IMG/VR virus record: IMGVR_UViG_2740892427_000001 | Length of the DNA stretch: 64,000 bases | Origin: a virus | Taxonomy: Duplodnaviria; Heunggongvirae; Uroviricota; Caudoviricetes | Direction: 5' to 3' (one strand) | Shown: one piece after another, positions 1-41,918 of the stretch | Position numbering within the stretch: the stretch's first letter is position 1 | Layout: each line of letters opens with the position of its first letter | Notes under the pieces: model-generated | Database searches by the model: none | What the model was told of the DNA's origin: nothing | Seen by the model: the letters and a program-made list of their open reading frames with translations, nothing else | Made by a program: the position numbers and the translations under genes

Positions 1-236
1 TGACTCATTTCGCCAATCATCTGCTCCGGTGTGATACCAAGTTGCTGTGCTTTCAGCATGATCGGCGTACCGTGGGCATCGTCGGCACAGATGAAATTAA
101 CCTCGTGGCCGCGCATTCGCTGGTAACGAACCCAGACATCAGCCTGGATGTGCTCCAGCATATGGCCGAGGTGGATTGAGCCGTTAGCGTACGGCAGCGC
201 GCACGTCACCAGAATTTTCTTCGCGACTTGGGTCAT
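1..236 (-). CDS. metG: methionyl-tRNA synthetase, N-terminal part (gene continues beyond window start)
   Basis: Minus-strand ATG at 236..234; translation reads [60 protein letters not shown], the HIGH-motif N-terminus of MetG; divergent from mrp as in enterobacterial chromosomes. Confidence 0.85.
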
Positions 237-393
237 AGTAGGCATTACTTCTTTGTAGTGAAAAGGGGCTTGATAGTAACAAAATGGCCTTATGTCTGCC
301 ATGTGATAACAGCATTTCTCATAAATGATTAAATGTCGCAGCTGGAGTACACTACAAGGCGACAATTGCGCAAATTAAAATAAAGGAGACGGG

Positions 394-1494
394 ATGAGCG
401 AGTCCAAATCGCCGGATGCCCTGAGAGCAATGGTAGCCGGTACGCTGGCTAATTTTCAGCACCCAACCCTGAAACACAACCTGACTACGCTTAAAGCGTT
501 ACACCATGTTGCGTTGATGGATGACACACTGCATGTCGAACTAATCATGCCTTTCGTGTGGAATAAGCCTTTTGAAGACCTGAAAGAGCAATGTAGTGGT
601 GATCTGCTCCGTATCACTGGCGCAAAGGCTATTGACTGGAAGCTGTCGTACAACATTGCCACGCTTAAGCGCGTCAAAAACCAACCAGGCATTAATGGTG
701 TTAAGAATATTATCGCCGTAAGCTCAGGCAAGGGCGGTGTAGGCAAATCGTCCACAGCAGTAAACTTGGCACTGGCTTTGGCTGCTGAAGGTGCGAAAGT
801 TGGTATTTTGGATGCCGATATCTATGGTCCATCAATTCCAACCATGCTGGGCGCGGAAAACCAACGTCCAACCTCACCGGACGGTACTCACATGGCACCT
901 ATCATGTCTCATGGCCTGGCAACCAACTCTATTGGTTATCTGGTCACCGACGACAATGCAATGGTGTGGCGTGGACCGATGGCCAGCAAGGCGCTGATGC
1001 AGATGTTGCAGGAAACACTGTGGCCTGATCTGGACTATCTCGTTCTCGATATGCCGCCGGGCACTGGTGATATTCAATTGACGCTGGCGCAGAACATTCC
1101 TGTAACTGGTGCGGTTGTGGTAACTACGCCGCAAGACATCGCGCTGATCGATGCGAAGAAAGGCATTGTGATGTTCGAAAAAGTCGAAGTGCCGGTACTA
1201 GGTATCGTCGAAAACATGAGTGTGCATATTTGCAGTAACTGCGGTCATCACGAGCCAATTTTTGGCACCGGTGGCGCACAGAAACTGGCCGAGAAATACA
1301 ACACGCAGTTGTTAGGCCAAATGCCACTTCATATCTCTCTTCGTGAAGATCTGGATAACGGAACACCAACCGTTATTAGTCGTCCAGATAGCGAATTTAC
1401 GGCTATTTATCGTGACCTCGCAGATCGCGTTGCTGCCCAAATGTATTGGCAAGGTGAAGTAATACCTGGCGAAATCGCATTCCGCGCAGTGTGA
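394..1494 (+). CDS. apbC: Fe-S cluster carrier P-loop ATPase Mrp/ApbC
   Basis: 366 aa ORF; deviant Walker A SGKGGVGKS; CxxC near C-terminus; N-terminus close to E. coli Mrp. Confidence 0.9.
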   Translation: MSESKSPDALRAMVAGTLANFQHPTLKHNLTTLKALHHVALMDDTLHVELIMPFVWNKPFEDLKEQCSGDLLRITGAKAIDWKLSYNIATLKRVKNQPGINGVKNIIAVSSGKGGVGKSSTAVNLALALAAEGAKVGILDADIYGPSIPTMLGAENQRPTSPDGTHMAPIMSHGLATNSIGYLVTDDNAMVWRGPMASKALMQMLQETLWPDLDYLVLDMPPGTGDIQLTLAQNIPVTGAVVVTTPQDIALIDAKKGIVMFEKVEVPVLGIVENMSVHICSNCGHHEPIFGTGGAQKLAEKYNTQLLGQMPLHISLREDLDNGTPTVISRPDSEFTAIYRDLADRVAAQMYWQGEVIPGEIAFRAV

Positions 1495-1498
1495 TAAA

Positions 1499-1525
1499 AA
1501 GGTGGTGCAATGCACCACCTAAACA
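1499..1525 (-). terminator. hairpin ggtggtgcaatgcaccacc followed by T-run on the minus strand; terminator for the UmuD'-like gene
   Basis: Perfect 9-bp inverted repeat at 1501..1519; minus strand reads hairpin then TTTTTATC. Confidence 0.45.
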
Positions 1526-1531
1526 GTTCTC

Positions 1532-1921
1532 CTACATCACAGGACAATCATCAAACTCGCCACTTCTTGCGTCGTTGATAATGTGAGTGATCACACCAAA
1601 CACGGCATTGCTGCCCGTGCATCCATCATCATCCTTTGGCAATGCTTCCTTCTTACCAGTTCTTAAATCCTCCAGATGCTGACGTGGATACTTCCGGTAT
1701 CTTTTTACGCGATATTCCCCATCCAGAGCACATACAAGAAGAGATCCATCAACAGGAGTCAGTGAGGAATCGACCACCAGCAATGCACCCTGCAATATTC
1801 CCTCACGATGATGACTATCAGCCGCCCTCATGAAGTAGGTCGCTGAAGGATGTCTAATTATCTGCTGATCAAGAGAAATACGGCTCTCAGCATAATCCGC
1901 CGCAGGAGAAGGGAAGCCCAT
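1532..1921 (-). CDS. UmuD'/HumD-like SOS mutagenesis protein (S24 peptidase fold), naturally lacking the UmuD N-terminal arm
   Basis: MGFPSPAADY...SATYF..DS..VKR closely parallels UmuD/MucA from the RecA-mediated cleavage site onward; in-frame stop two codons upstream of the ATG, so no longer N-terminus is possible. Confidence 0.75.
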   Translation of the reverse strand: MGFPSPAADYAESRISLDQQIIRHPSATYFMRAADSHHREGILQGALLVVDSSLTPVDGSLLVCALDGEYRVKRYRKYPRQHLEDLRTGKKEALPKDDDGCTGSNAVFGVITHIINDARSGEFDDCPVM

Positions 1922-1937
1922 AATACTCGCCTCTTAA

Positions 1938-1957
1938 TGCTGTATATGCATACAGTA
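1938..1957. promoter_or_regulatory. LexA (SOS) box tgCTGTatatgcatACAGta upstream of the UmuD'-like gene
   Basis: CTGT-N8-ACAG consensus, 17 bp upstream of the start codon at 1921. Confidence 0.65.
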
Positions 1958-2258
1958 TATGTTGAAGCTATATATTTTTGAACTCTATCTCTTAAAAAAG
2001 ATGTTAATAAGATGCTAACTATTGAAAGGCATAAATATATACAATTCCAACAAACGTTATTTTTAACAAATTTTTACTTCCCATTGACTTTCCCAGACTC
2101 CTTGTCTGAACTAATGTCCGCGGAAACCACTTTTTCCTTTACGAGTTATCCACAAAGTTATGCACTTGCACATAGTCTCTATAAATCCTATCTTAATTCG
2201 CAAGACACTGATGTTGCGGTATTGTGGGTACATTTGGTTAAAAACGGACATTAAAAAA

Positions 2259-2284
2259 GCCCAGTTGACTAGGCTGGGCTTTTT
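2259..2284. terminator. bidirectional intrinsic terminator (gcccagttgactaggctgggc flanked by A-run and T-run)
   Basis: 7-bp stem, A6 upstream, T4 downstream. Confidence 0.5.
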
Positions 2285-2321
2285 AAAAGGAAACAGAGTT
2301 TGCGCCTCTGTTCCTGAGCCA

Positions 2322-2604
2322 TAAGTATCTGGCGACTGAGCTAAGATTAACCGAATGTACTGGATTCATCAAGAAACGTTGAGCCGTCATGCTAGGTAAT
2401 AATGACCATTTACCAAACATCGTTGTTCTCAAAGAAGATTTAAGTCCAGGTTTTTGGTGACTCTAAAACCTTACCTTAACTCGAAATCGTGCCGTAAGTA
2501 TCTGGCGACTACAGATATTGCAACTGCAAAGGCAAGCTCAAAGGTATTTGCAGCTAGGTGCGATAAAACTAAGTGAGGCCTATAGTGCTTAACTTACTTT
2601 TCAA
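2322..2604. repeat. direct repeats in the noncoding junction between chromosome and element: TAAGTATCTGGCGACT (2322..2337 and 2495..2510) and AAATCGTGCCG (2484..2494 and 2594..2604)
   Basis: Exact 16-bp and 11-bp direct repeats in a ~430-bp region with no ORF; ends with hairpin ggccccatccaaatggggcc at ~2683..2702. Confidence 0.45.
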
Positions 2605-2717
2605 AATCGTGCCGCCTATGTTCGCAATCATCGAAGCGATCATTGAGTACGTCAACCAGCGCCCATAATGCTAGTTGTTACCGGCCCCATCCAAATGGGG
2701 CCATTTTATTGTATTGA

Positions 2718-3350
2718 CTACATACTTTCTGATCTAATTGAGTTGTTCACTGCTCTGGCAATTTTCTCCCGCAATTGCTGCGTTCCGTGGTACTGAACCG
2801 CAATATCCCGCAACTCATTCACCAGTTCTCTAATCTGGTGATCTTTAAGCTCATTATTTGGGTGATGGGCAACAACTCTGGTTAATTCACCCTTGTCTTT
2901 TGCTCTTACGTATGCAGCTCTTGTGCATTCGACCCATGTATTACCGCCTACATTAACTTCGTAGATTAGGCTGGACTTATCTGTCAATTCGGAACAAATA
3001 CGGGCCGTGGTCTGGCAACTAGAGCATTCGCAGTTATCGCGGAAACCGTGATCTACCGGTCGAGAAAGAGGTTTAACTTTTTCATCCAACTTCATCACAG
3101 CATCGTGATAAGCGTTCCAGCCGTCATCTTTACCAAGTTGATAAATCTCTGAAGGCTCCATGTAGTCTATATCGCAACCTTCTTCATCTGATCTATCTGG
3201 TCGTTTCCCTGGTAATCGTTCATAAAAACGATTTCTGTCTCGACGTTCGGCTCTCAGTGCTAACGCAAGAAGTTGCTCAAGCGAGGTATTTGCACCAGCA
3301 ATAATTTCATTGAGAATATCTTCTGTGAGATCTTTCGCTACCGTGCTCAT
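2718..3350 (-). CDS. hypothetical protein with Cys cluster (CECSSC)
   Basis: 210 aa ORF, start overlaps upstream gene stop (operon); no confident family assignment. Confidence 0.5.
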   Translation of the reverse strand: MSTVAKDLTEDILNEIIAGANTSLEQLLALALRAERRDRNRFYERLPGKRPDRSDEEGCDIDYMEPSEIYQLGKDDGWNAYHDAVMKLDEKVKPLSRPVDHGFRDNCECSSCQTTARICSELTDKSSLIYEVNVGGNTWVECTRAAYVRAKDKGELTRVVAHHPNNELKDHQIRELVNELRDIAVQYHGTQQLREKIARAVNNSIRSESM

Positions 3351-3730
3351 TTATCTCTCTCAGTATGTTGCGATGGCGTAAATTTGACGACATCAAATAT
3401 TTTGGATGGCATCAACTTTATCCGCGAGCTTAGTTCGGCTCTTCTCTGTAATGCGGTTAATAATGTTTTCGTTCTGACGCCTTCGTGTATCCTCATCCCT
3501 GGCACAAGGACTACATCGCAGGGGAGATGCTCAGGTGACAAATCATTTTGGGCATCACCAATAAGTTGTGTAATCTCTCTTTCAAGCCGACCGCCTAACT
3601 CCGTTTTAGTGCAATGTTCTGACCAATCGCCAGCCTCAAGCAGCGCGAGAATGCTTAAAATATCGTCCAATAGATCAGTGGTATTATCGACTTCCTTCTG
3701 AAACTCACCGGCTACTGATTTATGCATCAT
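3347..3730 (-). CDS. hypothetical protein (possibly MazG-like pyrophosphohydrolase fold)
   Basis: 127 aa ORF, overlapping stop/start with neighbours; weak EAGDW..E motif resemblance only. Confidence 0.45.
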   Translation of the reverse strand: MMHKSVAGEFQKEVDNTTDLLDDILSILALLEAGDWSEHCTKTELGGRLEREITQLIGDAQNDLSPEHLPCDVVLVPGMRIHEGVRTKTLLTALQRRAELSSRIKLMPSKIFDVVKFTPSQHTERDK

Positions 3731-4380
3731 TCGTCATCCTCATCCGAGTCATCCTCATCACAGGATGAGAGTAGTGGGTTAGTCATTCGCCCTACTTGAG
3801 TGGCGTAGCCACGCCGACAGAGATTGCGCAGCACACTGTATATTTCGAACATCTCGGTTCGTTCATCGCCAACATCAAGCTCAGATGCTATAGCGTGGCA
3901 TTCAGTCGCGAGAGCCGATATTTTCTGAAATAACTCTGCATTATTCACTGTTCGACTCCTGCGGCGTTCTGGTAGTGGCATCCAGTGTGTGACATTGCTA
4001 ATCAGACCATATTCATTAGTTTGAGGATGGTTGCCGTTATCGTCTCCGTATTTAAGACTCTCCATAAAGCCATAATGCCTATCACCATTAACGCTCACAA
4101 AGCCGTAATAAGCAGGTATAACGCCGATCTCACACGTAACCAGTAAAGGAAAACTAGTTCTCCAATTTAGCTCGCCAATTACAGGCATTCGCTCACTACA
4201 GCTTATCCAACCATCCTTAGATGCGGCTGTATTGGCATAGGCCTTACGGTGCTTCTGTAGCTCTGCTGCAATCGCTCTCACGACTTCAACTGGTGCCCTT
4301 GCAGCAAACTCAATGTTGGTGATCAGCTCATTAAGATATTTCTCGCTTGGGTAGCATTTCTTATTGGTAAAGGTTGTCAT
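3727..4380 (-). CDS. hypothetical phage protein (DUF551-like), acidic C-terminal tail
   Basis: 217 aa ORF; W..C.ERMP and WMPLPE motifs reminiscent of DUF551; ends in DEDDSDEDDE. Confidence 0.5.
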   Translation of the reverse strand: MTTFTNKKCYPSEKYLNELITNIEFAARAPVEVVRAIAAELQKHRKAYANTAASKDGWISCSERMPVIGELNWRTSFPLLVTCEIGVIPAYYGFVSVNGDRHYGFMESLKYGDDNGNHPQTNEYGLISNVTHWMPLPERRRSRTVNNAELFQKISALATECHAIASELDVGDERTEMFEIYSVLRNLCRRGYATQVGRMTNPLLSSCDEDDSDEDDE

Positions 4381-4568
4381 TAGGCAGCTCTCTCAACAAC
4401 AAGCAATTCGTCGTAGTCATAATCAGTTTCGGAACCATCCGTACCGAACAGAGTCACTTTGTCACCGTCCATCCAGAAAGATTTAACCGCACATTGTTGA
4501 CCTTTAGATGTTATGACCACATCACCAGGTATTACGTCCTCAGCGCGAACTTCTATAGTTCTCATCAT
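4380..4568 (-). CDS. small hypothetical protein (~62 aa)
   Basis: ATGATG start overlapping the stop of the upstream gene (ATGA); the longer ORF in the track (to 4697) runs antisense-frame through the upstream gene. Confidence 0.4.
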
Positions 4569-4888
4569 GCTGATCCCTCTTTCTCTCCCCGGATAATTCT
4601 GTTGCACACATCCACGCACTCGTCGCAGATGAAAACGGCGTCCCCAGCAATTAACTTTTTGACGGCGTGCTGGGATTTGTTGCAGAAGCTGCAACAAAGT
4701 GTTCGCCTGACTGATAAGGATGGAGCGCCAGATGTCAGCCGCTCCATATCGTTCTTGCGACGCAATATCACACGGCTGAACTCAACCAGTTTCTCCGGGG
4801 ATATATCCTCCTCCGTAGCGAGCGTCTCTAGTCGTTCGAGTATGTTGAAGGCTTTTTCTTGGGTAATAGCAGAGTGCGATGTGGTCAT
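4565..4888 (-). CDS. small protein with C-terminal ClpX-type zinc-binding (ZB) domain
   Basis: C-terminus [38 protein letters not shown] parallels the ClpX N-terminal C4 zinc-binding domain (CSFCGKSQ..ICDECV..CN.II). Confidence 0.55.
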
Positions 4889-5286
4889 TTTCTTTCACCT
4901 TCAATGTTCGTGGCGCTGGCAAGATTGTCCTTGCGAAGAAGAGCGGCTATGCGCTTACTTCCATCCGAGATAACGCCCTCGTAATACTCACGCTGCTCGT
5001 TGAGTTTTGATTTTGCCAACTCCAGTTGTTTTGTTAGTTCCGCAATACGGCAAACATCGTTGATACGCGTTTCCTCTAATGCGTTGATCTCATCCAGTAG
5101 TGCCAGCACGGTTTCTGGTCCGGCCAGAAATTTGAAGGCGTTGAGGGCATCAATATCAACACCGCTATCTTTAAGTTCCTGTTCGCTTATCAGATCATCA
5201 TCAACTGGCAACATTAACAGGCGTTCCATTGCCGGAATTGCACGCTCTGCCGCCTCACGCAGTGCCTGATAGTCAATCTTGCTCAC
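4885..5286 (-). CDS. Ead/Ea22-like coiled-coil protein
   Basis: [15 protein letters not shown]-terminus typical of lambdoid Ea22-like proteins (from memory). Confidence 0.5.
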
Positions 5287-5783
5287 TGGATGACTCCTTT
5301 ACGAAGCTGTTCAGCAATACTTACGCATATCTCTGCGCCTCTAATCAGCCCCGGAACGTTCTTGTTTGGCCCAACTTCACCATCAACAAAATCAATCATC
5401 GCGTTACGAGCCATATCCACGCCCTGCGCACGTACTTCAGCCAGAAAAGCATCGGTGGCTGGAGTCTCCGTTAATTCGCTAACCCAATTATCTCCGTGTT
5501 CCTCGGCACACATCGTATCGAATGCTCGCTCAGATTCTTTCAGGGCTGCATTCTCCGCCGCTAATGCGTCTCTTTGCGCCCGCAACTTCTCAATTTCGGC
5601 AGCCATGTAGTAACCAACCATAGCGAAGACGGCAAAAGAGTTGTCTGCCTCATCAGGCGACACTGAGGCCATTAGCAGGCCATCGTAAAAATCGTGACTC
5701 CCATTGGTGATCGCCACCGCATAGGAGTCGTGGTTCTCGCGCTTGTGAATGAGAACTACGGGATTTTCGATTTTGTTACTCAT
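5283..5783 (-). CDS. hypothetical protein
   Basis: 166 aa ORF with conserved GGAAAAACACATG-type start context. Confidence 0.5.
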   Translation of the reverse strand: MSNKIENPVVLIHKRENHDSYAVAITNGSHDFYDGLLMASVSPDEADNSFAVFAMVGYYMAAEIEKLRAQRDALAAENAALKESERAFDTMCAEEHGDNWVSELTETPATDAFLAEVRAQGVDMARNAMIDFVDGEVGPNKNVPGLIRGAEICVSIAEQLRKGVIQ

Positions 5784-5921
5784 GTGTTTTTCTCTTCTTT
5801 GCTGTTACATAAGCACTACCAAGTGCTGGTTTATTTTCACAAATAAGAAAAGGTAGAAAACAATTTATTTAAGGCCACAACTTATGGCCTTTATTTATTC
5901 ATGCCGAAGGATTTGTAGCGT

Positions 5922-6302
5922 CTAATTGCCGGATAAAATGGGGTGAGGTGCTTGCCAGTAGGCTCCACCGGTCCATGTGAACCCCATGCGAATAAGAGTG
6001 TTTATTGCGGCTTTGGTAGACTCCGATTCGACACTGGCTTTTCGAAACTCTTGAACCTCTTTCGCCAACTTGTATGTAATTGTGCAGGGGACGATTGCAG
6101 CCCAGCCTTTCTCATGACTGTTAATGACCATCTGGATGTGACCATCCAGAATAGGTTGATTAGGCATGTTATTGAAAATGTCTGCCTGTTTTTGAATGTG
6201 AAGAAAAAGCCTTGCCAGCTCCATTTGCTCACTACGAGACAAGGGATTATCAAGAGGGCTTTTTGCAAAAGCGGCTATACGCTGTGCGTCAATGCCAAAC
6301 AT
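5922..6302 (-). CDS. hypothetical protein
   Basis: 126 aa ORF, stop overlaps next start. Confidence 0.45.
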   Translation of the reverse strand: MFGIDAQRIAAFAKSPLDNPLSRSEQMELARLFLHIQKQADIFNNMPNQPILDGHIQMVINSHEKGWAAIVPCTITYKLAKEVQEFRKASVESESTKAAINTLIRMGFTWTGGAYWQAPHPILSGN

Positions 6303-7006
6303 CAGCGCACCTCACCATCTTTATGGCTGGAGTTAACTTCCGCCATTAAATGTCTGACGTAATCGACAAGAGAGCCACCTGGTGGAATCTGGCATTCCTC
6401 AACTAACTGGAAGTAGATATCCGCTGCATTACGTGTATTGCTACCCGCACATATTCTTTCTTCCCGAAGTGCATGAAGCTCGTTGATCAAACGGTCACAC
6501 TCTCCGTTACGCTGATCCACAACGGCCTCAAGCTCTGCGACGCGTTCACCTGGCGTCTTACCTTCTTTGCGTTGGATGGTAACGACGAAATCGCCAATTG
6601 CAGGGACGTTGTAATCCAGCTCAAGGTAGTTTTTGGCACCGCTGCGGACGAACTCACCCGCGAACATGGTGGCGAACATCGCAGAGGCCACTTCGTCGTT
6701 GAAAAGTGACTCCAGATCTAACGGAGTCCCGGCAGCAAGAGCCTCTTTTGCTGTATCCATTGCATCCATGAACCGATCAAACTCACTAGCGCGCTTTTCC
6801 AGGTCTTTCCATTGCTCGCTCCAACGTTTGGCAACGAAGTCTATGAATGTTTTCGCGGATTCATCAAAATCCCCCTCAAACTTAACGATGCCTTTATCAA
6901 TAATGATCTGGCCTACCGCATCCTCTGCATAACCTTTCAATGTAAACTTGAAAGGAAAATCAGAATGGCCTGTGACGTTAAAATGCTCTAACTGGAGGTT
7001 GTTCAT
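6302..7006 (-). CDS. hypothetical protein
   Basis: 234 aa ORF with conserved start context catgtgtttttc. Confidence 0.5.
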   Translation of the reverse strand: MNNLQLEHFNVTGHSDFPFKFTLKGYAEDAVGQIIIDKGIVKFEGDFDESAKTFIDFVAKRWSEQWKDLEKRASEFDRFMDAMDTAKEALAAGTPLDLESLFNDEVASAMFATMFAGEFVRSGAKNYLELDYNVPAIGDFVVTIQRKEGKTPGERVAELEAVVDQRNGECDRLINELHALREERICAGSNTRNAADIYFQLVEECQIPPGGSLVDYVRHLMAEVNSSHKDGEVR

Positions 7007-28349: not shown

Positions 28350-28575
28350 GTGTTTTTCCTTTGTGGTTATTTTGATACAGATATTAAGTGTGTTTGAGAG
28401 GCGAACAATCCAGATAACACGGCCATTAAGAATGTTCACAGACACATGATTATGGCAAATTCATAGGTAAGTGAATACCTATTTTTATGGACAGCAAAGA
28501 CTTCTAGATGTTACAAGCCACTCTATAATCGCAGTCACTTAATGATGACAACCAAACGAAAAAGGAGAACTGACG

Positions 28576-29079
28576 GTGAAACGCGTAATTATAGGGACGA
28601 TGGCCATTGCTCTGATCGGATGCGTACCAAAACCACCTCAAGATGAAAAGTCAGCTGGCGGGTACGTTGATATTTACTCCACTTCAAGCGTAGCAATTGC
28701 CCAAGACAGAGCCGACAAATTGTGTGGAAGCCATGCCTATTATGTCTCTAACGACAATGATTTAACCAAAGTCATGGGTAGATACGCGCCTTCATTCCCA
28801 AAAATCAGGTTCAACTGTGATCTTGAAATGGCCGCTTATCTGGGCAGCAAAGAGGCAAAGGAGATCAAAATGAAACGCATAGAGGAAGCCTACAAGGAGA
28901 TGTACAAGGCCCAATATGAGCTGAAAGAAGTGCGCCGTAAGAACGCTGATCCGAAGAAGCTGGAGTCTTACACAGAACGCGATCCGGACGGTACTATTCG
29001 CAGCTACAGCTTCTTGAATGGCAAGTCGTGCGAATCAATCGTGTACCCAGACGGCACGGGCAAAACGACTTGTGATTAA
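28576..29079 (+). CDS. lipoprotein (plus-strand cassette)
   Basis: Signal peptide with lipobox LIGC; own terminator downstream. Confidence 0.6.
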   Translation: MKRVIIGTMAIALIGCVPKPPQDEKSAGGYVDIYSTSSVAIAQDRADKLCGSHAYYVSNDNDLTKVMGRYAPSFPKIRFNCDLEMAAYLGSKEAKEIKMKRIEEAYKEMYKAQYELKEVRRKNADPKKLESYTERDPDGTIRSYSFLNGKSCESIVYPDGTGKTTCD

Positions 29080-29088
29080 TTCTTCAGG

Positions 29089-29115
29089 AGCACCTCGTAT
29101 GGGGTGCTTTTTATT
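29089..29115 (+). terminator. intrinsic terminator after lipoprotein gene
   Basis: agcacc/ggtgct stem followed by TTTTTATTTT. Confidence 0.55.
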
Positions 29116-29551
29116 TTGGGTCGCGAAACAGCATGTCGGCCATTTGCGAGGATTTGACGTAGCACTTTGCCATCATCGGCTGACTAGGGTTTGATGCGAT
29201 CATGTCGGACACCAGCATTGACCCATAGCCTTTTCCGCGAAGCTCTTTGACAATACTGACGGCACGGAGTTCAAGTCAAGGTGCGCCAGTCGGATCGAGT
29301 GCGGCACAGAACCAGATTAGTCCTACTTTTTGTCATCAGAACGATGCAGCAGGATGTAGATAAAATGCCCGGAGTATTGGCCCCGCTCGTTCGTCTTGAT
29401 TGCCAGTCTGGTCTGCTGCTCAAAGGTTTTACCCCCCCTTTGATGTGAGGATCTCTTCGTAGAAGTGACCTTTGCGTGCGCCGTCCTCGAACTCAGCCAT
29501 GATAAAAGGCATGTCTGTCACAGTTGCTGCCCTTGAATAAAATTCACTCAT
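29111..29551 (-). pseudogene. decayed GNAT acetyltransferase-like gene (frameshift at C7/G7 tract plus further disruptions)
   Basis: Minus-strand reading MSEFYSRAATVTDMPFIMAEFEDGARKGHFYEEILTSKGG stops at the G7 run (29432..29438); C-terminal fragment in another frame has LRGKGYGSML (GNAT motif A-like). Confidence 0.45.
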
Positions 29552-29626
29552 GTATTAATCCTAAAAGCCCTCAGTGTCTTTCTAATGCACCATATTTTAT
29601 GCCTCGGTTAAACCCTGAGATTACGT

Positions 29627-30271
29627 TTAAAACGTCTCAGTGGGCTTTTTACGCGCTGCGTTTATGCTTATGACGCCAGCTTTTGGACGTGGGTCAACAA
29701 GGTTAAGCTCTTCTTCACTGTGGTATTCGAGGTCGAACTCACGTTTTACATGTCTGATGTAGATTGCGGTGAGCAGGCTATCTTTGGTCAGGAAGTGTCC
29801 GTAGGATTTGCGGATCACTTCTTCTACCTTCTCGATTTTCTCACCACCCATACAGAGATGATTAAACCGGCTGTGTTTCCGCAACATTTCGTCTACTGGG
29901 CCTGAGTAAACCTTGTCTACTTTCCCAAAACGGATGATTTTCCCTGTGTCTGCGGATACAAGGCAAATCAGCTTGTCTGGTGATAAACGATCTTGCCACG
30001 TCACACCTGAACGGAGTGTGTTGAAGTAGGGTGCATCCAATCCGATGATCGGTTTACGAAATGCGAGCAATGGAACGTACCTGATGCAACTGTTTAAATG
30101 AAAATTCACACCAGCCTTATCAAGTTTAATTCTGGTTTCGTAGATCGGGCACTTCGCCGCTATACCGCAGATGTCACAAAGCAACTTCTGCTTATTCAGG
30201 TTGGAATTTGATTCGATAGTGTAGGAGCCGTCCTCAAGACGACGAACCCAGCGCGTGCGTTTTAGATCCAT
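29627..30271 (-). CDS. hypothetical protein adjacent to replication origin
   Basis: 214 aa ORF. Confidence 0.5.
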   Translation of the reverse strand: MDLKRTRWVRRLEDGSYTIESNSNLNKQKLLCDICGIAAKCPIYETRIKLDKAGVNFHLNSCIRYVPLLAFRKPIIGLDAPYFNTLRSGVTWQDRLSPDKLICLVSADTGKIIRFGKVDKVYSGPVDEMLRKHSRFNHLCMGGEKIEKVEEVIRKSYGHFLTKDSLLTAIYIRHVKREFDLEYHSEEELNLVDPRPKAGVISINAARKKPTETF

Positions 30272-30358
30272 AATCGTTTTTTCAGTAGTTATTGGCCGAT
30301 GCTACGATAACTCATTAGGCATACCTTAATCTGCATTTGCCTGTTTTACTTATCCCAG

Positions 30359-30806
30359 TTATCCACTGGATAGATCCAAATAAGAGATCCCAAGTAAGAT
30401 CAAATAGAAGATCCAAAGAGATCCCCGATCGCCTCTAGCCGTTGCGGTTACTGGTCTGAAAGGGTGTTGCCATCCACTATGGAGAGCAAAGAAACCTCTG
30501 TAGAGAGCTGAATAACCGCTATGAAGAGTAAAACAACCACTCTGGAGAGCTGTATATATCCACTGTAGAGAGTAGAGCACATTGTCTTTTATGGATAACT
30601 TAATGACTTAATTCTTCATTAACATACTGATATACATAGATATATTTTAAACTCTACTCTTAGTCATGATTCTTATGTCCTTAAATATCCACAGAAGAGT
30701 AGAGTTACCTGTTCTTGAAATCCTCTGATTTTATCCACAGGCCCGATCCAGTAATTCAGATCACAAAGAGAACCAAAGAGACCCATAAAGACCCAATAAG
30801 ATCCCC
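30359..30806. promoter_or_regulatory. origin-type region: DnaA boxes and two GATC-rich clusters
   Basis: DnaA box-like sites at 30359..30367, 30685..30693 and perfect TTATCCACA at 30731..30739; GATC clusters at ~30373..30430 and ~30752..30806. Confidence 0.5.
30472..30573 (+). repeat. iteron array A (5 copies, 21-bp period, consensus AWCCRCTNTRGAGAGY)
   Basis: Copies at 30472, 30493, 30514, 30535, 30558. Confidence 0.75.
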
Positions 30807-30851
30807 GCCCACCTCAAACCGTTGCGCCATCTGCCTTCAGACATGATCGAT

Positions 30852-30973
30852 ATCCACTATAGAGAGCGAATAATCCACTATAGGGAGCAAAGCAACCACT
30901 ATAGAGAGGAGAAAAACCACTATAGACGGTAGGATAACCGCTGTGATGAGTGCTACTATCCACTGTAATCAGC
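30852..30973 (+). repeat. iteron array B (6 copies, 21-bp period) immediately upstream of repA
   Basis: Copies at 30852, 30873, 30894, 30915, 30936, 30958. Confidence 0.8.
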
Positions 30974-31013
30974 AAAGGCCACCAAAGCCGTCGAATAACA
31001 AGAGACATTTGGA

Positions 31014-32069
31014 ATGAGCGAAAACGGCAATAAAAACATAGCGATCGTTGAAGCATTTTCAGAAACAGATAAAAAGACAGGCGAAGTTGTTACGTTGGTT
31101 CCTAACACTAATAACACTGTTCAGCCTGTTGCTTTGATGCGTCTGGGCCTCTTCGTTCCGACGCTGAAATCGACATCCAGAGGAAGAAAGGGGCAAATGG
31201 TCTCTATGGATGCCTCTGCTGAACTCAAACAGCTGTCTCTGGCAAAAGCCGAAGGGTACGAAGACATAAGGATCTCTGGCCTTCGGCTTGATATGGATAA
31301 CGACTTTAAAACGTGGGTGGGAATAATCCACGCGTTTGCCAAACACAAGGTCGTTGGCGATACTGTCACGTTGCCGTTCGTTGAGTTTGTAAGGCTGTGT
31401 GGCATTCCGACCGCCAGGTCATCAGCGAAGTTACGCAAACGCCTGGACAGTTCGCTAAGCCGTATTGCCACAAATACCATCTCGTTCCGTAGCAAAGGCT
31501 CTGATGAGTTTTACGTAACGCATCTTGTGCAAACGGCAAAATATAGTGTCAAGCACGATACGGTCGAACTGAAAGCAGATCCCAAGATTTTCGAACTCTA
31601 CCAGTTCGACAAAAAGGTTCTTCTGCAACTCCGGGCTATAAACGAACTCTCAAGAAAAGAATCCGCTCAGGCGCTTTATACTTTTATTGAAAGTTTGCCG
31701 CCTGATCCGGCACCAATATCACTAGCTCGTTTACGCGCCAGACTTAATCTGACAAGTCGCACTATTACTCAGAATGCGACGGTAAGAAAGGCTATGGAAC
31801 AGCTGCGAGAGATAGGATATCTCGATTACACGGAAGTTAAGCGCGGAAACTCGGTCTACTTCATCATCCACTATAGGCGGCCAAAGTTACGCCAGGCACA
31901 AATATCAACAAAAATCGATAATGATGAGACGGAATATAGCCTCCCAGATGAGAATCAAGATGACATTATCGACGTTGTGCCTGACGAAAAAGAAGGCAAA
32001 ATGGTCATGTTGAGTAAAGAAGAACTGGCGCTTCTCGAAGAGTTGCGCAAGGCAAAGACTCGCAAATAG
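31014..32069 (+). CDS. repA: P1/RepFIB-type replication initiator RepA
   Basis: Blocks [51 protein letters not shown] match P1 RepA from memory; flanked by iterons. Confidence 0.85.
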
Positions 32070-32071
32070 CC

Positions 32072-32555
32072 CAACCACTGTAGTTAGTAGTAAGGCTCAC
32101 TATCCACTGTAGTGAGCCTTACTTATATCTGTAATTCGCTATCCACTATAGTGAGTATCGTTATCTGTTGATAACCACTGTAGGCAGTAGAATGCAAATA
32201 CTGAATTAAATGTTAGTGATCACTAACACTGATGAAACAAGGGCTGCGAGGTTAGTGGTCACTGGGTATCTTGGAAAATTTACTGTCTATAGTGGTTGTT
32301 GTCGCCCTCATCTTTGAGCGTATCCACTGTGGCGAGTGGATATCCACTGAAAACAGCAAAGGCTTACTCACCATAGTGGATACCCGCTGGACATCTCACT
32401 CCAATACTCACCATAGTGGTTGTTTGATGCGAATGAAAGGCTGTCTACTCGCTACAGTGGTTAGCAGATATGTAGGAAGAGAGGACTGCAGACCACAGTG
32501 GATAATGAGCTGATACGAATGCGGTGAGCTGGCTACTCACCGCAGTGGTTGGTGC
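32072..32555. repeat. iteron array C downstream of repA (~11 copies, both orientations; incA-like)
   Basis: Repeated CCACTGTAG/CACTATAGTG-type units; also palindrome GTTAGTGATCACTAAC at ~32212..32227. Confidence 0.7.
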
Positions 32556-32557
32556 TA

Positions 32558-35295: not shown

Positions 35296-37635
35296 TTACT
35301 CTTCTACTGACTCGGTGGGGTTGTCTTTTGCTCTTCGGTCGTCGATTGCCTGCAAAGCCGCAATGATTTCAGCCAGTGGCTTCTCCCGATACATCTCGAC
35401 GATCTGCGATTTGGTGTATTTCTTGTCACCAATTTCAACTCGCCCGCTGGCGTTCTTTGGCAGGTATCCTTCTTCCAGCATGTACTCGACGAGCGATTCG
35501 ATAACGTCGAGGCCACGAGTAGGATCGAAGTAGAATTTCCAGGTGCATTTGCCATACGGTGGTGCAACTTTGTTTTTGATGCATTCTGCGCCTACGTCCT
35601 GGCCGATCTTCTCTTTACCATCCTTCATCACCGATGCACCAAGACGGATACGTACAGAAGCGTAGAACTTCGGTGAATCGCCGCCTGGTGACGTAGTAGG
35701 GTCGCCAAACATTACACCGATTTTTGTGCGAACCTGATTCAAGAAGATGATGCAGGCGTTGTATTTGCGTGCCCACAAAGCCAGAGTAGGGAAGTTCGCA
35801 CTCGTCGCACGAGCCAGTGCCGTATTGTCGTTCATGTTTAGCTGATCTTTGTCTTTGGCAGTGCCTTCAGCCATCTTTTCGAACTTCTCGGCTTTGGAGT
35901 TCGGAACCATAGACGCAAGAGAGTCAGCCACGATACAGATAGGTGCTGATTCGGGGATAAGCTCTTCATCACGAACCAATTTAAGTATTGTGCCGATCAA
36001 CTCTACAGAGTCTTCGAAGGTATCTGGCTGCTTGTATACCCACTGACCGTCATCCTCATCTGCGTTCAGGCCATTGGCTACAGCCAGGCCAACGTCAAAA
36101 CTGTTTTCATGATCGAGGAATACCGCCAGACCATCTTGTTTTTGAGCGGAGATCATCGCTGCTGTTGCAAGGAATGTGTTGTGGCTGATAATCCCGTTAG
36201 ACCAGAAAGAGTGTGTTTCCGGCATCGCTACGTCGAACGTTGGTGCTTCACCTTCCTCAATAGCCACGACTTCGTCGTAGAACAAGTTAGAGCCAATTAC
36301 CGCTGCCAGTTGTGCAAACAGATGCTCGTTAAAACGATTCTTTCTGCCAATGAAGGAGACATAGATTTCTCGCAGTTTGTCTATTCCGACACGATCGCCG
36401 CGGCCAATAACGTGGTCTACCAGAGCGTAGTCTTCACGGGTGGTCTTGGTGAGCGACTCGTAGAGTGATTTCACTAAGCCGCTGATGTGCGGAACATAGC
36501 CTGAGTAAGTGCGGTCAAAACCAATGTCCCGTTTGGTTGCCACTGATAAACGTGCCGGAGATTCGAAACCAATCGTTGACAGAAAAAGGTCGTAATTAGA
36601 GCCACTGAATGACAGCCGGTAATATGTATTTTCATAACCCGCGACGTGTTTTTCAGAGATAGTTGACGTAATCCCCAGATTCAGGAGCATGAGGCGAATT
36701 TGCTGTAGCAGCAGCCCACTCGCGCTCACAACCTCAATGCAGCGACCATCATTGACGTGGCATTCCAGCTCAAAGTAGCCGCGAAGGAATGCAATTTGAG
36801 CCTCGCTATTGGCGCGACGCACACTCAACGGAACCTGCTTGCCAGCATCTTTCTCATACTCCAGACCATATTCTTTAAAAAGCAGCGAACGCACCTCTTT
36901 GCTAAACAGCACATGGTCTTCCGAGCCGTTATGTTTTCTCGTAACTGGCATCTTGTCTGATACCAGCGAAATGAGGCGGTAGTACTCATCCTTGATGAAA
37001 GGATCTGTGTTAGAAAAATTCACTGAATTTTCAGAGGCCACGTATCCGTCAGCAATTAAATAGCCCATCAGTTTTGCGATATTGGCATCCAGGTGCTGAT
37101 CGCCGAATTGATGTGTGCCAACCATTGAAGGAATCGTGTCGCCTACACTGATTTTTTCAGCATGTCGCCAGACGACATTACCTAAGTCGTCAACCACACG
37201 GATTGGGTGACGGAACGTAGCCTCGATATAACCGCCTGATGCCAGCTTAATACGCTTGAATTTGCGACGGTTGTTCCATGTCAGGTGTGAGGTCTTCTCT
37301 ATCACGCCATTTTCATTGATGAGTCCAACGTTATGCTCTACATCGCGAGTAGTGCATGTCGCTTTGTACCCTTCAATCTCAAACAACTCTTTCACTGTTA
37401 CCATTCCACGCTCCGTCAGCAGCATGGTGTCTGCGGTAACACATTTCCCCGCGCTTGGTGGCCCGAATACTTCGACGATACGACCACATGGGAAGCCGCC
37501 ATCGTAACGACCAGAAATAGCTTTGTTTAACGGTGGAAAGCCTGTATCAATCCAATGAGTTACTTTCTGAATTTCGTCGTTGCTACCGATTTTCTTTTTC
37601 AGAGCAAGTGCCAGTGCGGATTTTCCTTTTGCCAT
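35296..37635 (-). CDS. recA: RecA recombinase containing an in-frame intein
   Basis: Exteins read ...RIVEVFGPPSAGK / TFLATAAM...LNQVRTKIGVMFGDPTTSPGGDSPKFYASVRIRLG (RecA core); 779 aa total versus ~357 aa extein. Confidence 0.85.
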   Translation of the reverse strand: MAKGKSALALALKKKIGSNDEIQKVTHWIDTGFPPLNKAISGRYDGGFPCGRIVEVFGPPSAGKCVTADTMLLTERGMVTVKELFEIEGYKATCTTRDVEHNVGLINENGVIEKTSHLTWNNRRKFKRIKLASGGYIEATFRHPIRVVDDLGNVVWRHAEKISVGDTIPSMVGTHQFGDQHLDANIAKLMGYLIADGYVASENSVNFSNTDPFIKDEYYRLISLVSDKMPVTRKHNGSEDHVLFSKEVRSLLFKEYGLEYEKDAGKQVPLSVRRANSEAQIAFLRGYFELECHVNDGRCIEVVSASGLLLQQIRLMLLNLGITSTISEKHVAGYENTYYRLSFSGSNYDLFLSTIGFESPARLSVATKRDIGFDRTYSGYVPHISGLVKSLYESLTKTTREDYALVDHVIGRGDRVGIDKLREIYVSFIGRKNRFNEHLFAQLAAVIGSNLFYDEVVAIEEGEAPTFDVAMPETHSFWSNGIISHNTFLATAAMISAQKQDGLAVFLDHENSFDVGLAVANGLNADEDDGQWVYKQPDTFEDSVELIGTILKLVRDEELIPESAPICIVADSLASMVPNSKAEKFEKMAEGTAKDKDQLNMNDNTALARATSANFPTLALWARKYNACIIFLNQVRTKIGVMFGDPTTSPGGDSPKFYASVRIRLGASVMKDGKEKIGQDVGAECIKNKVAPPYGKCTWKFYFDPTRGLDVIESLVEYMLEEGYLPKNASGRVEIGDKKYTKSQIVEMYREKPLAEIIAALQAIDDRRAKDNPTESVEE
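36178..37443 (-). mobile_element. intein (422 aa) with LAGLIDADG homing-endonuclease motifs, inserted in the RecA P-loop
   Basis: Begins with Cys directly after GK of Walker A, ends with HN followed by Thr; internal LMGYLIADGYV and LRGYFELECHV blocks. Confidence 0.8.
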
Positions 37636-40054: not shown

Positions 40055-40486
40055 TCAACGGGGAGTAATAAAGCGTTCAGAGCCTAATCGCTCTAATTCA
40101 ACGATGGCCATCTTTGACGCCTGAACGATCATGTCTCGGCGATGCGAAAAGGCGGCGACAGCATGTTTGTATATGTCTGCGATGTGCCGTGCTTCATCCA
40201 ACTTCTGCCGTTTAGACAGATACTGTGGGTTTGTTTTAACCTTAGCGTCCAGTACAGACTCGTTGAACTTAATGCCGTTCATACTCAAGTTCTTACGCTC
40301 TGTGTCGTATAGCTTTGCTTCAACAGCTTCAAGGTTAAGTTTTGCCTCTGCGACATCTCGATCTGCCTGCGCTAGTTTTGACCCATACTCCATTAAAAGC
40401 CGTGGCTGTTTACGCCATACTTCCTCAAGGTTGTCGCGGTCGAACTCCAGATCGGCCATGATTTTAGAAAAAATATCAGTGTTCAC
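40055..40486 (-). CDS. hypothetical protein (possible recombination mediator, by position only)
   Basis: 143 aa helical protein next to SSB and RecA genes. Confidence 0.35.
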   Translation of the reverse strand: MNTDIFSKIMADLEFDRDNLEEVWRKQPRLLMEYGSKLAQADRDVAEAKLNLEAVEAKLYDTERKNLSMNGIKFNESVLDAKVKTNPQYLSKRQKLDEARHIADIYKHAVAAFSHRRDMIVQASKMAIVELERLGSERFITPR

Positions 40487-40693
40487 TCTAATAGGTTCCT
40501 ACTTATAAAATCTGTATCAATTATATCAAACAGAGAACGGGTTTATGGCGTCATGTCAACTTTGTTCAGGGGAAAATATTGAGATCACCGAAGATAATTA
40601 GTTGTCTTATTTTGGTAAGCTGTGCTGACCATCTTTAGGTCACATACATGAGATGGATGGGGGTGTGGCATGAACGGATGAAATTCAGTCGCC

Positions 40694-40723
40694 GTTGACA
40701 GATGTCAACACTGTGAATAGAAT
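40694..40723 (+). promoter_or_regulatory. sigma70-type promoter TTGACA-17-TAGAAT with palindromic operator GTTGACAGATGTCAAC over the -35
   Basis: Perfect inverted repeat overlapping -35; 18 bp upstream of a GGAGG RBS and ATG at 40741. Confidence 0.5.
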
Positions 40724-40740
40724 ACTATTATCGGAGGCGA

Positions 40741-40965
40741 ATGAAGCAACATCCGAATAAGCATATTCAAGCAGCCATTGACTATGCATTAAGTAAAGGC
40801 TGGATCTGGGTAGCAGCTGGTGGTGCTGCACATTGTTTTTGCAGACTGCGATGCGGTAATCCAGAAGGTGAACACAAAACTCACCAAATGAGCGTATGGT
40901 CGACTCCGGGTAATCCCGAAAACCATGCCAAACAGATCAAACGAATGGTTGATCGTTGTAAATGA
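40741..40965 (+). CDS. small Cys/His-rich protein, possibly HicA-like toxin
   Basis: 74 aa; strong RBS; weak HicA-like pattern (GW...GG.AH...P.NH..KQIKR). Confidence 0.4.
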   Translation: MKQHPNKHIQAAIDYALSKGWIWVAAGGAAHCFCRLRCGNPEGEHKTHQMSVWSTPGNPENHAKQIKRMVDRCK

Positions 40966-41025
40966 TTTCAAGGCGGCATTAGCCGCCTTTTGCAGAAACT
41001 GTCCAACTATCTTCAAAGGAAAACT

Positions 41026-41589
41026 ATGGCGCTTTATAACTTCACTCTGACGCTCTCAGGCGTATCGTATGAGACGGAAGGACTGGAAGACGCGCTGTAC
41101 CAAAACGGCTGTGACGATGCGCTAATTTGCGCATATGGAAACTCCGTCTATGTAGAATTTGACCGCGAAGCACAATCACTTGATGCAGCTATCGCATCTG
41201 CGGTCGACAATATTGAATCAGCCGGTATCGGTGCAATTGTTGAATCCGTCGACTCGGCTCTTGTGGGCTTAAGCGATATCGCGGAACTGACAGACCTGTC
41301 TCGCCAGGCAGTGGCGTTGCTCAAAGACGGTAAGCGCGGAAGCGGCGACTTCCCTTGCCCTGTACAACGCATAAAAGGCCAGTCTCCTCTCTGGGATTGG
41401 GCTGATGTGGCTGAATGGCTCATGAATAACGGACGACTTAAAGAGGGCGATCAAATTGTCCAAAATGCCCGAACTTTGAGTAAATGGAATCTGGCGCTTC
41501 GAAACAGCGTCTCGAAAGATTTCAACGAAATAGAGCAAATTGCGGAGAAACTGATTAAACGCCGCAAAGATATTGCGAAATGCGCATAA
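41026..41589 (+). CDS. possible HicB-like antitoxin with C-terminal HTH
   Basis: Start at ATG 41026 with AAGGA RBS; N-terminus YNFTLTL...YETEG and C-terminal HTH-like LSRQAVALL. Confidence 0.35.
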   Translation: MALYNFTLTLSGVSYETEGLEDALYQNGCDDALICAYGNSVYVEFDREAQSLDAAIASAVDNIESAGIGAIVESVDSALVGLSDIAELTDLSRQAVALLKDGKRGSGDFPCPVQRIKGQSPLWDWADVAEWLMNNGRLKEGDQIVQNARTLSKWNLALRNSVSKDFNEIEQIAEKLIKRRKDIAKCA

Positions 41590-41918
41590 TGATGCCCGCC
41601 AATTGGCGGGCATCTGTTCTCTGTAAAGGTGTCTGGCATCGTCTGGTTCGTTAACGTTTACTAAACCAATGGTGACAAAAATTAGTTATCTTTGAAAAAT
41701 AAAGGTTGCATGAAAAGAAGGGGTATGCGTTAATAGCATCGTTGGTTTGCAAGACAGACCTTATGTAAGCAGTTTTAGTAAAGCAGTCTCAGTTCAGTGT
41801 TATCTTCTGATTTCCCTTCTTCGTGAGTCTCCTCCTTAAGTGCCTAAGTAAGTCCCAATCTATACAGATCAAATTCTCGCCGCACTATGTGGCTCACAAA
41901 ATTAAGAAGGTAATATCT

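What the first reader, a model, noticed from the sequence alone, without database searches (positions are those of the whole stretch)
1532..1957. LexA-regulated UmuD'-like gene that is natively pre-truncated, at the edge of the element
The ORF starts MGFPSPAADY, exactly where RecA-mediated autocleavage of UmuD produces UmuD', and an in-frame stop two codons upstream excludes a longer form. Catalytic Ser and Lys positions are still present. A consensus LexA box sits 17 bp upstream. Phage P1 HumD is a comparable natively truncated UmuD' homologue (recalled from the literature). No umuC-like partner is in the window, so it would have to act with host UmuC or pol V.
Basis: partly seen in the sequence, partly recalled or inferred. 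Interest (0 to 1): 0.45.

Follow-up and report, generated by a model that had tools for sequence, protein, structure and literature searches.

The report
Phage-plasmid HumD, a ready-made UmuD'
This is an ordinary, already catalogued copy of humD, a phage gene for a pre-shortened helper subunit of the host's error-prone DNA polymerase V, which sits behind an SOS (LexA) operator inside an SSU5-like phage-plasmid of E. coli rather than at the edge of an inserted element.

Summary
A 129-aa ORF (1532..1921, minus strand) starts MGFPSPAADY, aligned exactly on Gly25 of E. coli UmuD. An in-frame TAA closes the frame upstream, at 5 codons, not 2. A 17/20 LexA box (1938..1957) lies 16 nt before the ATG and overlaps a promoter-like -10.

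The gene is a full-length member of the NCBIfam HumD equivalog. It is 91.5% identical to phage P1 HumD, and the same protein is named HumD family in RefSeq. It is under strong purifying selection (dN/dS 0.04 against P1). No UmuC homologue is found in the window or in a complete 115.7-kb relative.

The "edge of the element" reading is wrong. The window is an SSU5-like phage-plasmid (Cyrano/pLF82 lineage) that carries its own diverged metG and apbC, 82% identical to K-12. humD lies in an internal accessory region. The DNA shared with P1 is exactly the LexA box plus the ORF.

The Ser/Lys dyad is present here but looks vestigial. In natively truncated relatives it is intact in 2 of 32, against 44 of 58 cleavable UmuD-like proteins.

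One possibly new lead: a nearly invariant, disordered C-terminal tail, EFDDCPVM, resembles the SSB C-terminal tip DFDDDIPF.

Verdict: already known, low interest.

The parts
1532..1921 (-). humD coding sequence (129 aa plus stop). It encodes a natively truncated UmuD' homologue.
   Evidence: ORF list and translation. NCBIfam HumD equivalog 219.8 bits, full length. Pfam Peptidase_S24. 91.5% identity to P1 HumD. dN/dS 0.043 against P1.
1532..1561 (-). Codons for the family-specific C-terminal tail SGEFDDCPVM, plus the stop. UmuD has no such tail. It is disordered in the model and resembles the SSB C-terminal tip DFDDDIPF.
   Evidence: Columns 122-129 are 90-98% invariant over 120 clusters. pLDDT is below 50 for residues 121-129. 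SSB sequence from K-12. The tail motif occurs in 11 of 32 native-start representatives and 1 of 58 arm-bearing ones. It is the only such C-terminus in all six frames of the window and of the whole related plasmid.
1930..1935 (-). Shine-Dalgarno AAGAGG, 8 nt before the ATG.
   Evidence: Read directly from the sequence.
1934..1936 (-). In-frame TAA five codons upstream of the ATG. It excludes an N-terminal arm.
   Evidence: Translation reads *EASIM.
1938..1957 (-). LexA (SOS) box TACTGTATGCATATACAGCA.
   Evidence: It is homologous in position to the LexA site annotated in the P1 record. It is conserved in P1, BTP1 and phiKO2 and in L013.
1954..1982 (-). Sigma-70-like promoter, TTCAAA-17 nt-TATACT. 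Its -10 hexamer overlaps the LexA box.
   Evidence: Consensus scan. This is a pattern match only, and the number of such matches in the region is not above chance.
1500..1520 (-). Intrinsic terminator-like hairpin followed by a T run after humD. It lies between the convergent humD and apbC genes.
1958..2170 (-). A remnant related to the P1/P7 upfN-upfO region, directly upstream of the box. Compared with P1, the hot and lxr genes between this segment and humD are absent.
   Evidence: 84% identity to P7 and P1 relatives. 72% identity to P1. No Lxr homologue in the window.

Best explanation
The gene is humD, the orthologue of bacteriophage P1 HumD, carried in an internal accessory region of an SSU5-like phage-plasmid of E. 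coli (Cyrano/pLF82 lineage).

Proposed mechanism:
- In the lysogen, host LexA binds the box that overlaps the -10 of the humD promoter and keeps the gene off.
- DNA damage activates RecA, LexA cleaves itself, and humD is transcribed.
- The product already has the length and N-terminus of UmuD', so it needs no RecA-mediated self-cleavage.
- It dimerises and joins host UmuC to form a pol V-like translesion polymerase. This gives the element, or its host, earlier or extra lesion bypass and mutagenesis during SOS, the same conditions that induce the phage.

Shown here: gene structure, native truncation, family membership, the conserved SOS box, the absence of umuC, and purifying selection.

Inferred from P1 HumD work (McLenigan et al. 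1999, recalled rather than read; summarised in the P1 GenBank record and in PMC7092418): dimerisation, binding of UmuC and RecA filaments, and complementation of UmuD'.

The Ser/Lys pair is a relic of the ancestral self-cleaving enzyme.
For: - Family membership: NCBIfam NF051876 HumD equivalog, 219.8 bits (cutoff 120), matched 1-129 of 129. The protein is 100% identical to Cyrano CYRAN_98. The RefSeq protein at the matching locus of a 100%-identical plasmid, WP_000506720.1, is named 'HumD family translesion DNA polymerase'. Identity to P1 HumD is 91.5%.
- Relation to UmuD: 42% identity, beginning exactly at Gly25. The AlphaFold model's best PDB matches are UmuD' 1UMU, 1AY9 and 1I4V and UmuD 8GMT.
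- Native start: 108 of 120 family clusters begin MGFPSP.
- SOS box: the P1 record annotates a LexA site 19 nt upstream of humD and functional complementation of UmuD'. The box is conserved in P1, BTP1, phiKO2 and a P22-like prophage.
- Shared module: homology with P1 spans exactly the box plus the ORF, window 1533..1957.
- Selection: dN/dS 0.043.
- No partner polymerase: no UmuC or other Y-family polymerase in the window or in the complete 115.7-kb relative.
- Biology of the element: Cyrano is induced 39-fold by ciprofloxacin, and CYRAN_98 is not among the genes expressed in unstressed lysogens (PMC9928086).
- Literature: PMC7092418 states that P1 encodes an already activated, shorter UmuD called HumD.
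Against: - No experiment exists on this allele or on any SSU5-like element.
- LexA binding and SOS induction are inferred from sequence only.
- The promoter call is a weak consensus match (9 of 12), and the number of such matches in the region is not above chance.
- As I recall the P1 work, strong complementation needed a high-copy plasmid, so the physiological role of HumD is still unclear even for P1.
- The conserved C-terminal tail has no counterpart in UmuD', so the protein may do something UmuD' does not.
Confidence: 0.82

Rival explanations
1. HumD acts mainly as a modulator of RecA filaments and the SOS response, or of recombination, during induction of the phage-plasmid. It would do this by binding RecA* or by titrating host UmuC/UmuD. 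Translesion synthesis would be incidental.
For: - The element carries its own RecA-like gene and a full replication set but no Y-family polymerase.
- humD is co-regulated with dinI-like genes in phiKO2 and HK140.
- P1 HumD is reported to bind RecA nucleoprotein filaments (recalled from McLenigan 1999).
- The Ser-Lys dyad is dispensable in natively truncated relatives of this fold.
Against: - The segments shared with UmuD' are well conserved. Residues 2-30 match at 22 of 29 positions, and the C-terminal strand VFGVITHII matches VFGVVIHVV.
- The P1 orthologue complements UmuD' in mutagenesis (P1 record note).
Confidence: 0.1
2. HumD keeps protease activity and works in trans, for example by cleaving host UmuD, LexA or a phage repressor. 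This would explain why Ser and Lys are kept.
For: - Ser36 and Lys73 align with UmuD Ser60 and Lys97.
- Lys is kept in 117 of 120 close clusters.
- UmuD cleavage can be intermolecular (recalled from the literature).
Against: - The GDSM motif is degraded to ADSH.
- The nucleophile position is Thr in 43 and Ala in 2 of 120 close clusters.
- Only 2 of 32 natively truncated representatives keep both residues, against 44 of 58 arm-bearing ones. That is the pattern expected after loss of catalysis.
Confidence: 0.04
3. It is a decaying passenger gene, a fragment of a umuDC operon picked up by recombination, with no current function.
For: It is an orphan without umuC. It lies in a mosaic accessory region next to a P1-like remnant from which hot and lxr are missing.
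Against: - dN/dS is 0.043 with dS near 1.
- The ATG, Shine-Dalgarno and LexA box are intact.
- The same architecture is found in hundreds of clusters and in 758-899 of 5426 complete E. coli genomes.
Confidence: 0.02

Closest known systems
Bacteriophage P1 HumD (AAQ14181; McLenigan et al. 1999)
   Same: Both are 129 aa and 91.5% identical. Both start MGFPSPAADY and carry the same C-terminal tail (DDCPVI in P1, DDCPVM here). Both have a LexA box 16-19 nt upstream and no cognate umuC.
   Different: - The host element is an SSU5-like siphovirus phage-plasmid, not the myovirus P1.
- The divergent lxr gene and the neighbouring hot, phd and doc genes of P1 are absent.
- Here the gene is flanked by a phage-borne apbC-metG pair.
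- The nucleotide sequences have diverged to 84% (ungapped, ORF only; blastn over box plus ORF gives 82.7%), with dS near 1.
E. coli UmuD / UmuD' (pol V accessory subunit; PDB 1UMU, 1AY9, 1I4V, 8GMT)
   Same: The fold is the same, and identity is 42% over UmuD residues 25-139. The N-terminus coincides with the product of RecA-mediated cleavage. Both genes are preceded by a LexA box.
   Different: - HumD has no 24-residue arm and no Cys24-Gly25 cleavage site.
- The GDSM motif is degraded.
- Four extra residues sit in the 95-104 loop, and there is a 10-residue acidic tail.
- The gene is not in an operon with umuC.
- The score is below the NCBIfam cutoff for the UmuD subfamily, 87 against 110.
UmuD-like proteins of N15/phiKO2 (gp26/gp23), and of lambdoid HK140 and P22-like BTP1
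   Same: These are natively truncated HumD-family members in temperate phages, 63-71% identical. phiKO2 and BTP1 have LexA boxes. They sit as accessory genes near the partition or integration modules.
   Different: The genomic neighbourhoods differ: a divergent dinI in phiKO2 and HK140, and gtr-int in BTP1. HK140 has no box immediately upstream of the gene.
Plasmid and ICE UmuD homologues MucA, RumA and ImpA
   Same: They are mobile-element-borne, SOS-regulated accessory subunits of pol V-type polymerases.
   Different: Those are full-length, self-cleaving proteins encoded in operons with their own UmuC homologue (established knowledge; PMC7092418).

Membership tests
HumD family (NCBIfam NF051876; prototype P1 HumD) | Score against the curated equivalog model is above its cutoff over the full length. 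| tested here: met
   219.8 bits against a cutoff of 120, matched 1-129 of 129.
HumD family (NCBIfam NF051876; prototype P1 HumD) | The translation start is native and lies at the position of UmuD Gly25, so there is no N-terminal arm and no cleavage site. | tested here: met
   M-G2 aligns to the first residue of UmuD'. An in-frame TAA lies 5 codons upstream. 108 of 120 family clusters start MGFPSP.
HumD family (NCBIfam NF051876; prototype P1 HumD) | The protein has the UmuD'/S24 beta-fold. | tested here: met
   Pfam PF00717. PDB sequence hits to UmuD' at E = 7e-23. Foldseek's top hits are 1UMU, 8GMT and 1AY9. The model is of moderate quality: pLDDT 69.6 overall, core blocks 61-89.
HumD family (NCBIfam NF051876; prototype P1 HumD) | The gene is an orphan, with no cognate umuC-like polymerase gene on the element. 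| tested here: met
   tblastn with K-12 UmuC finds nothing with E below 4 in the window and nothing with E below 1 in the complete related plasmid. The plasmid annotation lists no Y-family polymerase.
HumD family (NCBIfam NF051876; prototype P1 HumD) | A LexA operator lies upstream and the gene is SOS-inducible. | tested here: inconclusive
   A 17/20 consensus box is present and positionally conserved with the annotated P1 site. Binding and induction cannot be tested with these tools.
HumD family (NCBIfam NF051876; prototype P1 HumD) | The protein dimerises, binds UmuC and RecA filaments, and complements UmuD' in mutagenesis. | not testable with these tools
   Known only for P1 HumD (note in the P1 record; PMC7092418). 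Inferred here from 91.5% identity.
UmuD (pol V autoproteolytic subunit, NF007621) | The protein has an N-terminal arm with a Cys/Ala-Gly cleavage site and an intact GDSM...K catalytic dyad, and scores above the family cutoff. | tested here: not met
   87 bits against a cutoff of 110. No arm is present. The motif reads ADSH.
LexA / phage CI-type repressors (S24 with an N-terminal DNA-binding domain) | The protein has an N-terminal winged-helix or HTH DNA-binding domain in addition to the S24 domain. | tested here: not met
   TIGR00498 scores 27 bits against a cutoff of 110.95 and matches only profile positions 91-166. The protein is only 129 aa long and begins at the cleavage-site-equivalent Gly.

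The most novel reading that the evidence does not exclude
The HumD family differs from UmuD' in more than being pre-cut. It has let the Ser-Lys dyad decay, and it has gained a short, disordered, nearly invariant acidic C-terminal tail, (E)FDDCPV[MI]. More distant members carry EFDDTPF or EFHDNLPF.

This tail resembles the C-terminal tip of bacterial SSB, DFDDDIPF. It could dock HumD, and any HumD2-UmuC complex, onto the pockets of SSB-interacting replisome and repair proteins such as the chi subunit, PriA or RecQ, or compete with SSB for those pockets. That would give phages a way to route the host's error-prone polymerase to stalled forks.

I found no mention of this in the searchable literature. 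That search was narrow, and the key 1999 and 2004 papers were not readable.
Probability: 0.12. Interest if true: 0.55.

Novelty: already known. Interest (0 to 1): 0.15.

Why it matters
As a finding it mainly confirms a textbook case: temperate phages carry an SOS-controlled, ready-activated UmuD' that borrows the host's UmuC. The gene plus its box is present in roughly one in six complete E. coli genomes, mostly on P1-like and SSU5-like phage-plasmids. These elements may therefore affect stress-induced mutagenesis in clinical and animal isolates, including under fluoroquinolones, which also induce this phage-plasmid (PMC9928086).

Two side results may be useful to specialists:
- The unit shared with P1 is exactly operator plus ORF.
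- Natively truncated homologues have lost constraint on the catalytic dyad, and the HumD subset has gained a conserved SSB-tip-like tail.

Tried and rejected
- **Integrated element with a chromosomal flank at metG/apbC.** Rejected. The same arrangement sits inside circular 108-115 kb plasmids and phage Cyrano, and the flank is only 81.8% identical to K-12.
- **A hidden umuC or dinB partner.** tblastn with K-12 UmuC against the window and against a whole related plasmid found nothing.
- **An lxr homologue divergent from humD, as in P1.** None was found. The 80-aa plus-strand ORF at 2012..2254 lies in a P1 upfN/upfO-like remnant and has no support.
- **A known RNA family in the 760-nt gap upstream.** There were only sub-threshold hits: RNAI at 24 bits against 47, E = 0.046.
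- **Reading McLenigan 1999 (PMC94175) and Lobocka 2004 (PMC523184).** Neither is held, so statements from them are marked as recalled.
- **An SSB with a canonical tip on the element, for comparison.** None exists. HumD is the only ORF in six frames with such a C-terminus.
- **Testing the tail-docking idea.** The structure tools fold single chains only and accept only window-derived sequences, so this could not be tested.

Full report
**1. The observation**

On the minus strand, 1921..1532 is a 129-codon ORF that begins MGFPSPAADYAESRISLDQQ. The frame upstream reads ...H*EASIM. An AAGAGG Shine-Dalgarno sits 8 nt before the ATG.

The 20-mer TACTGTATGCATATACAGCA occupies 1957..1938, 16 nt before the ATG. 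It matches the LexA consensus at 17 of 20 positions, with both CTGT and ACAG arms intact. The stricter pattern TACTGTAT-N4-ATACAG, with up to 2 mismatches, gives 4 hits at two sites in the window against 0.26 expected. A promoter-like TTCAAA-17-TATACT at 1982..1954 places its -10 inside the box. That is a consensus match only. A hairpin followed by a T run lies at 1520..1500, after the stop codon.

**2. What the protein is**

- Pfam gives Peptidase_S24.
- NCBIfam gives the HumD equivalog NF051876 at 219.8 bits (cutoff 120) over 1-129 of 129. The UmuD subfamily model (87 against 110) and the LexA model (27 against 111) fall below their cutoffs.
- Against solved structures, the best sequence hits are UmuD' 1UMU, 1I4V and 1AY9 and UmuD 8GMT. 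Gly2 aligns to the first residue of UmuD'.
- tblastn with K-12 UmuD gives 42% identity over UmuD residues 25-139.
- An AlphaFold model has mean pLDDT 69.6. The core blocks score 61-89. Residues 1-25 and 121-129 score below 50. Its top Foldseek hits are again UmuD' and UmuD.
- Ser60 and Lys97 of UmuD align with Ser36 and Lys73, but the GDSM motif reads ADSH.

**3. Relation to P1 HumD**

The protein is 91.5% identical to P1 HumD and 100% identical to CYRAN_98 of Escherichia phage Cyrano. The RefSeq protein at the matching locus of a 100%-identical E. coli plasmid, WP_000506720.1, is named "HumD family translesion DNA polymerase".

The P1 GenBank record annotates a LexA site 19 nt upstream of humD and states that HumD functionally complements UmuD'. 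PMC7092418 describes P1 HumD as an already activated, shorter UmuD.

DNA homology with P1 spans window 1533..1957. That is exactly the ORF plus the LexA box, and it stops at the outer edge of the box. Between the two alleles dN = 0.042 and dS = 0.99, so dN/dS is 0.043. This indicates a long-diverged gene under strong purifying selection, not a relic.

**4. What the surrounding element is**

That is not so.
- The window matches Escherichia phages CMS-2020a, Cyrano and PhiR41_1 at 96-98% over 92-99% of its first 25 kb. Salmonella phage SSU5 matches at 79%, and only from position 6357 onward.
- The same metG-apbC-humD arrangement sits inside circular 108-115 kb E. coli plasmids.
- The full annotation of one such plasmid (115,685 bp) shows RepB and ParB, phage head and tail genes, and a replication set (DnaB-like helicase, primase, dnaE, ligase, nrdAB, thymidylate synthase, RecA). 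It shows no Y-family polymerase. tblastn with UmuC finds nothing there.
- The phage-borne metG/apbC segment is only 81.8% identical to K-12.
- Cyrano is pLF82. It is kept at about 5.5 copies per cell and is induced 39-fold by ciprofloxacin (PMC9928086).

humD therefore lies in an internal, lineage-specific accessory region (window about 1..6350) of an SSU5-like phage-plasmid. Directly upstream of the box, 1958..2170 is 84% identical to the upfN-upfO region of P7 and P1 relatives. In P1, hot and lxr lie between that region and humD. Both are absent here. This suggests the segment was acquired from a P1-like element and then suffered a deletion.

**5. The family**

- A search of 5.8 billion proteins gave 561 clusters with E at or below 1e-5. 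The best 120 are almost all 126-130 aa, and 108 of them start MGFPSP. Many are named HumD family, from Escherichia, Citrobacter, Klebsiella, Enterobacter, Salmonella, Kluyvera and Trabulsiella.
- The few longer entries carry N-terminal extensions such as MYIQYLYC..., which look like read-through from an upstream start across the operator region. They appear to be start-codon miscalls.
- The box-plus-ORF DNA occurs in 899 of 5426 complete E. coli genomes, and 758 of them hold at least 80% of it. There are 736 places on plasmids and 231 on chromosomes.
- More distant members sit in a P22-like prophage (gtrA/glycosyltransferase genes, then humD, then int), with a LexA-like box TACTGTGTATATATACAGAA 22 nt upstream. 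Another sits in a phage-plasmid-like contig next to parA and dnaB. Neither has umuC nearby.
- phiKO2 and BTP1 also have boxes at the equivalent place. HK140 does not.

**6. The catalytic residues**

In the 120 close clusters the Ser position is S in 75, T in 43 and A in 2. The Lys position is K in 117.

| Class (50%-identity representatives with a complete core) | Keep Ser+Lys |
|---|---|
| N-terminal arm of 12 residues or more | 44 of 58 |
| Native start directly before the Gly | 2 of 32 (6 more have Thr+Lys) |

This is the pattern expected if self-cleavage was abandoned. Ser36 and Lys73 in this allele are therefore best read as vestigial.

**7. A family-specific tail**

HumD extends 10 residues beyond the end of UmuD. 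The last eight, EFDDCPVM, are 90-98% invariant over the 120 clusters, although the two residues before them vary. Variants such as EFDDTPF, EFHDNLPF, EFDEIPCI and EWDDLPVI persist down to about 40% identity. The motif occurs in 11 of 32 native-start representatives and 1 of 58 arm-bearing ones, and that one looks like a HumD with a miscalled start.

The tail is disordered in the model. It resembles the C-terminal tip of E. coli SSB...MDFDDDIPF. No other open frame in the window or the whole plasmid ends this way. Whether this is functional mimicry is untested, and I give it a low probability. A narrow literature search found nothing.

**8. Mechanism and verdict**

The best-supported account is the P1 model. 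LexA represses humD. SOS derepresses it. The pre-shortened protein dimerises and joins host UmuC, and RecA, to form a pol V-like enzyme without the slow RecA-mediated cleavage step.

Gene structure, family membership, box conservation, orphan status and purifying selection are shown here. Binding, induction and complementation are inferred from the P1 orthologue, which is 91.5% identical.

The rivals are a RecA/SOS modulator, a trans-acting protease and a dead passenger gene. They are less likely for the reasons given under each.

The finding is correct in substance but describes an already named and experimentally characterised family. Its only errors are the position of the stop codon and the "edge of the element" reading.

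Noticed in passing
window 35296..37635 (-): A 779-aa RecA-like ORF carries what looks like an intein inserted in the P-loop (GPPSAGK|CVTADT ... LMGYLIADGY ... SNGIISHN|T). The intein assignment rests on reading these motifs, including a LAGLIDADG-type endonuclease motif, by eye; no domain search was run. The related plasmid NZ_JBWDPU010000001 has a 357-aa recA without the roughly 1.27-kb insert.
   Followed up: partly
window 51638..51657: A second near-consensus LexA box, TACTGTATAAGTAAACAGTA (17/20), lies about 25 nt upstream of the start of a minus-strand gene. By correspondence with the related plasmid's annotation, that gene is a tyrosine recombinase/integrase with an HTH regulator gene beside it. 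It may link SOS to the control or resolution of the phage-plasmid.
   Followed up: partly
window 1..1494 (continues beyond the window start): The phage-plasmid carries its own complete apbC and a metG. Only the 5' end of metG is in the window. The segment is 81.8% identical in nucleotides to the K-12 mrp-metG locus. The apbC homologue, CYRAN_99, is reported as expressed 9-fold above background in LF82 lysogens (PMC9928086). The origin and role of these housekeeping paralogues are unexplained.
   Followed up: partly
window 2251..2717 (-): This stretch of about 450 nt has no annotated gene. It contains a promoter-like site (2655..2627), a 20-nt direct repeat GCC[AG]TAAGTATCTGGCGACT at 2318 and 2491, and a terminator at 2275..2258. 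The only Rfam hit is sub-threshold (RNAI, 24 bits against 47). It could be a small RNA, but it is 91-94% conserved only within the Cyrano lineage.
   Followed up: partly
window 1958..2170: This segment is 84% identical to the upfN-upfO region of P7 and P1 relatives. It abuts the humD LexA box directly, and the P1 genes hot and lxr that lie between them in P1 are missing. This looks like a trace of exchange between P1-like and SSU5-like phage-plasmids.
   Followed up: yes
window 41741..42159 (+) and 52636..53289 (-): There is a full-length match to the cspA thermoregulator 5' UTR (187.6 bits). There is also a cluster of four tRNA genes (Ser-UGA, Thr-UGU, Tyr-GUA, Asn-GUU) on the phage-plasmid.
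   Followed up: no
window 3680..5411, 28380..32557, 40466..43748 and other gaps: Several stretches of the window have no counterpart, or only a diverged one, in the closest complete plasmid examined. That plasmid in turn carries IS100 and IS2 copies and dfrA51, and the window was not checked for any of these. The accessory content of this lineage is highly mosaic.
   Followed up: no
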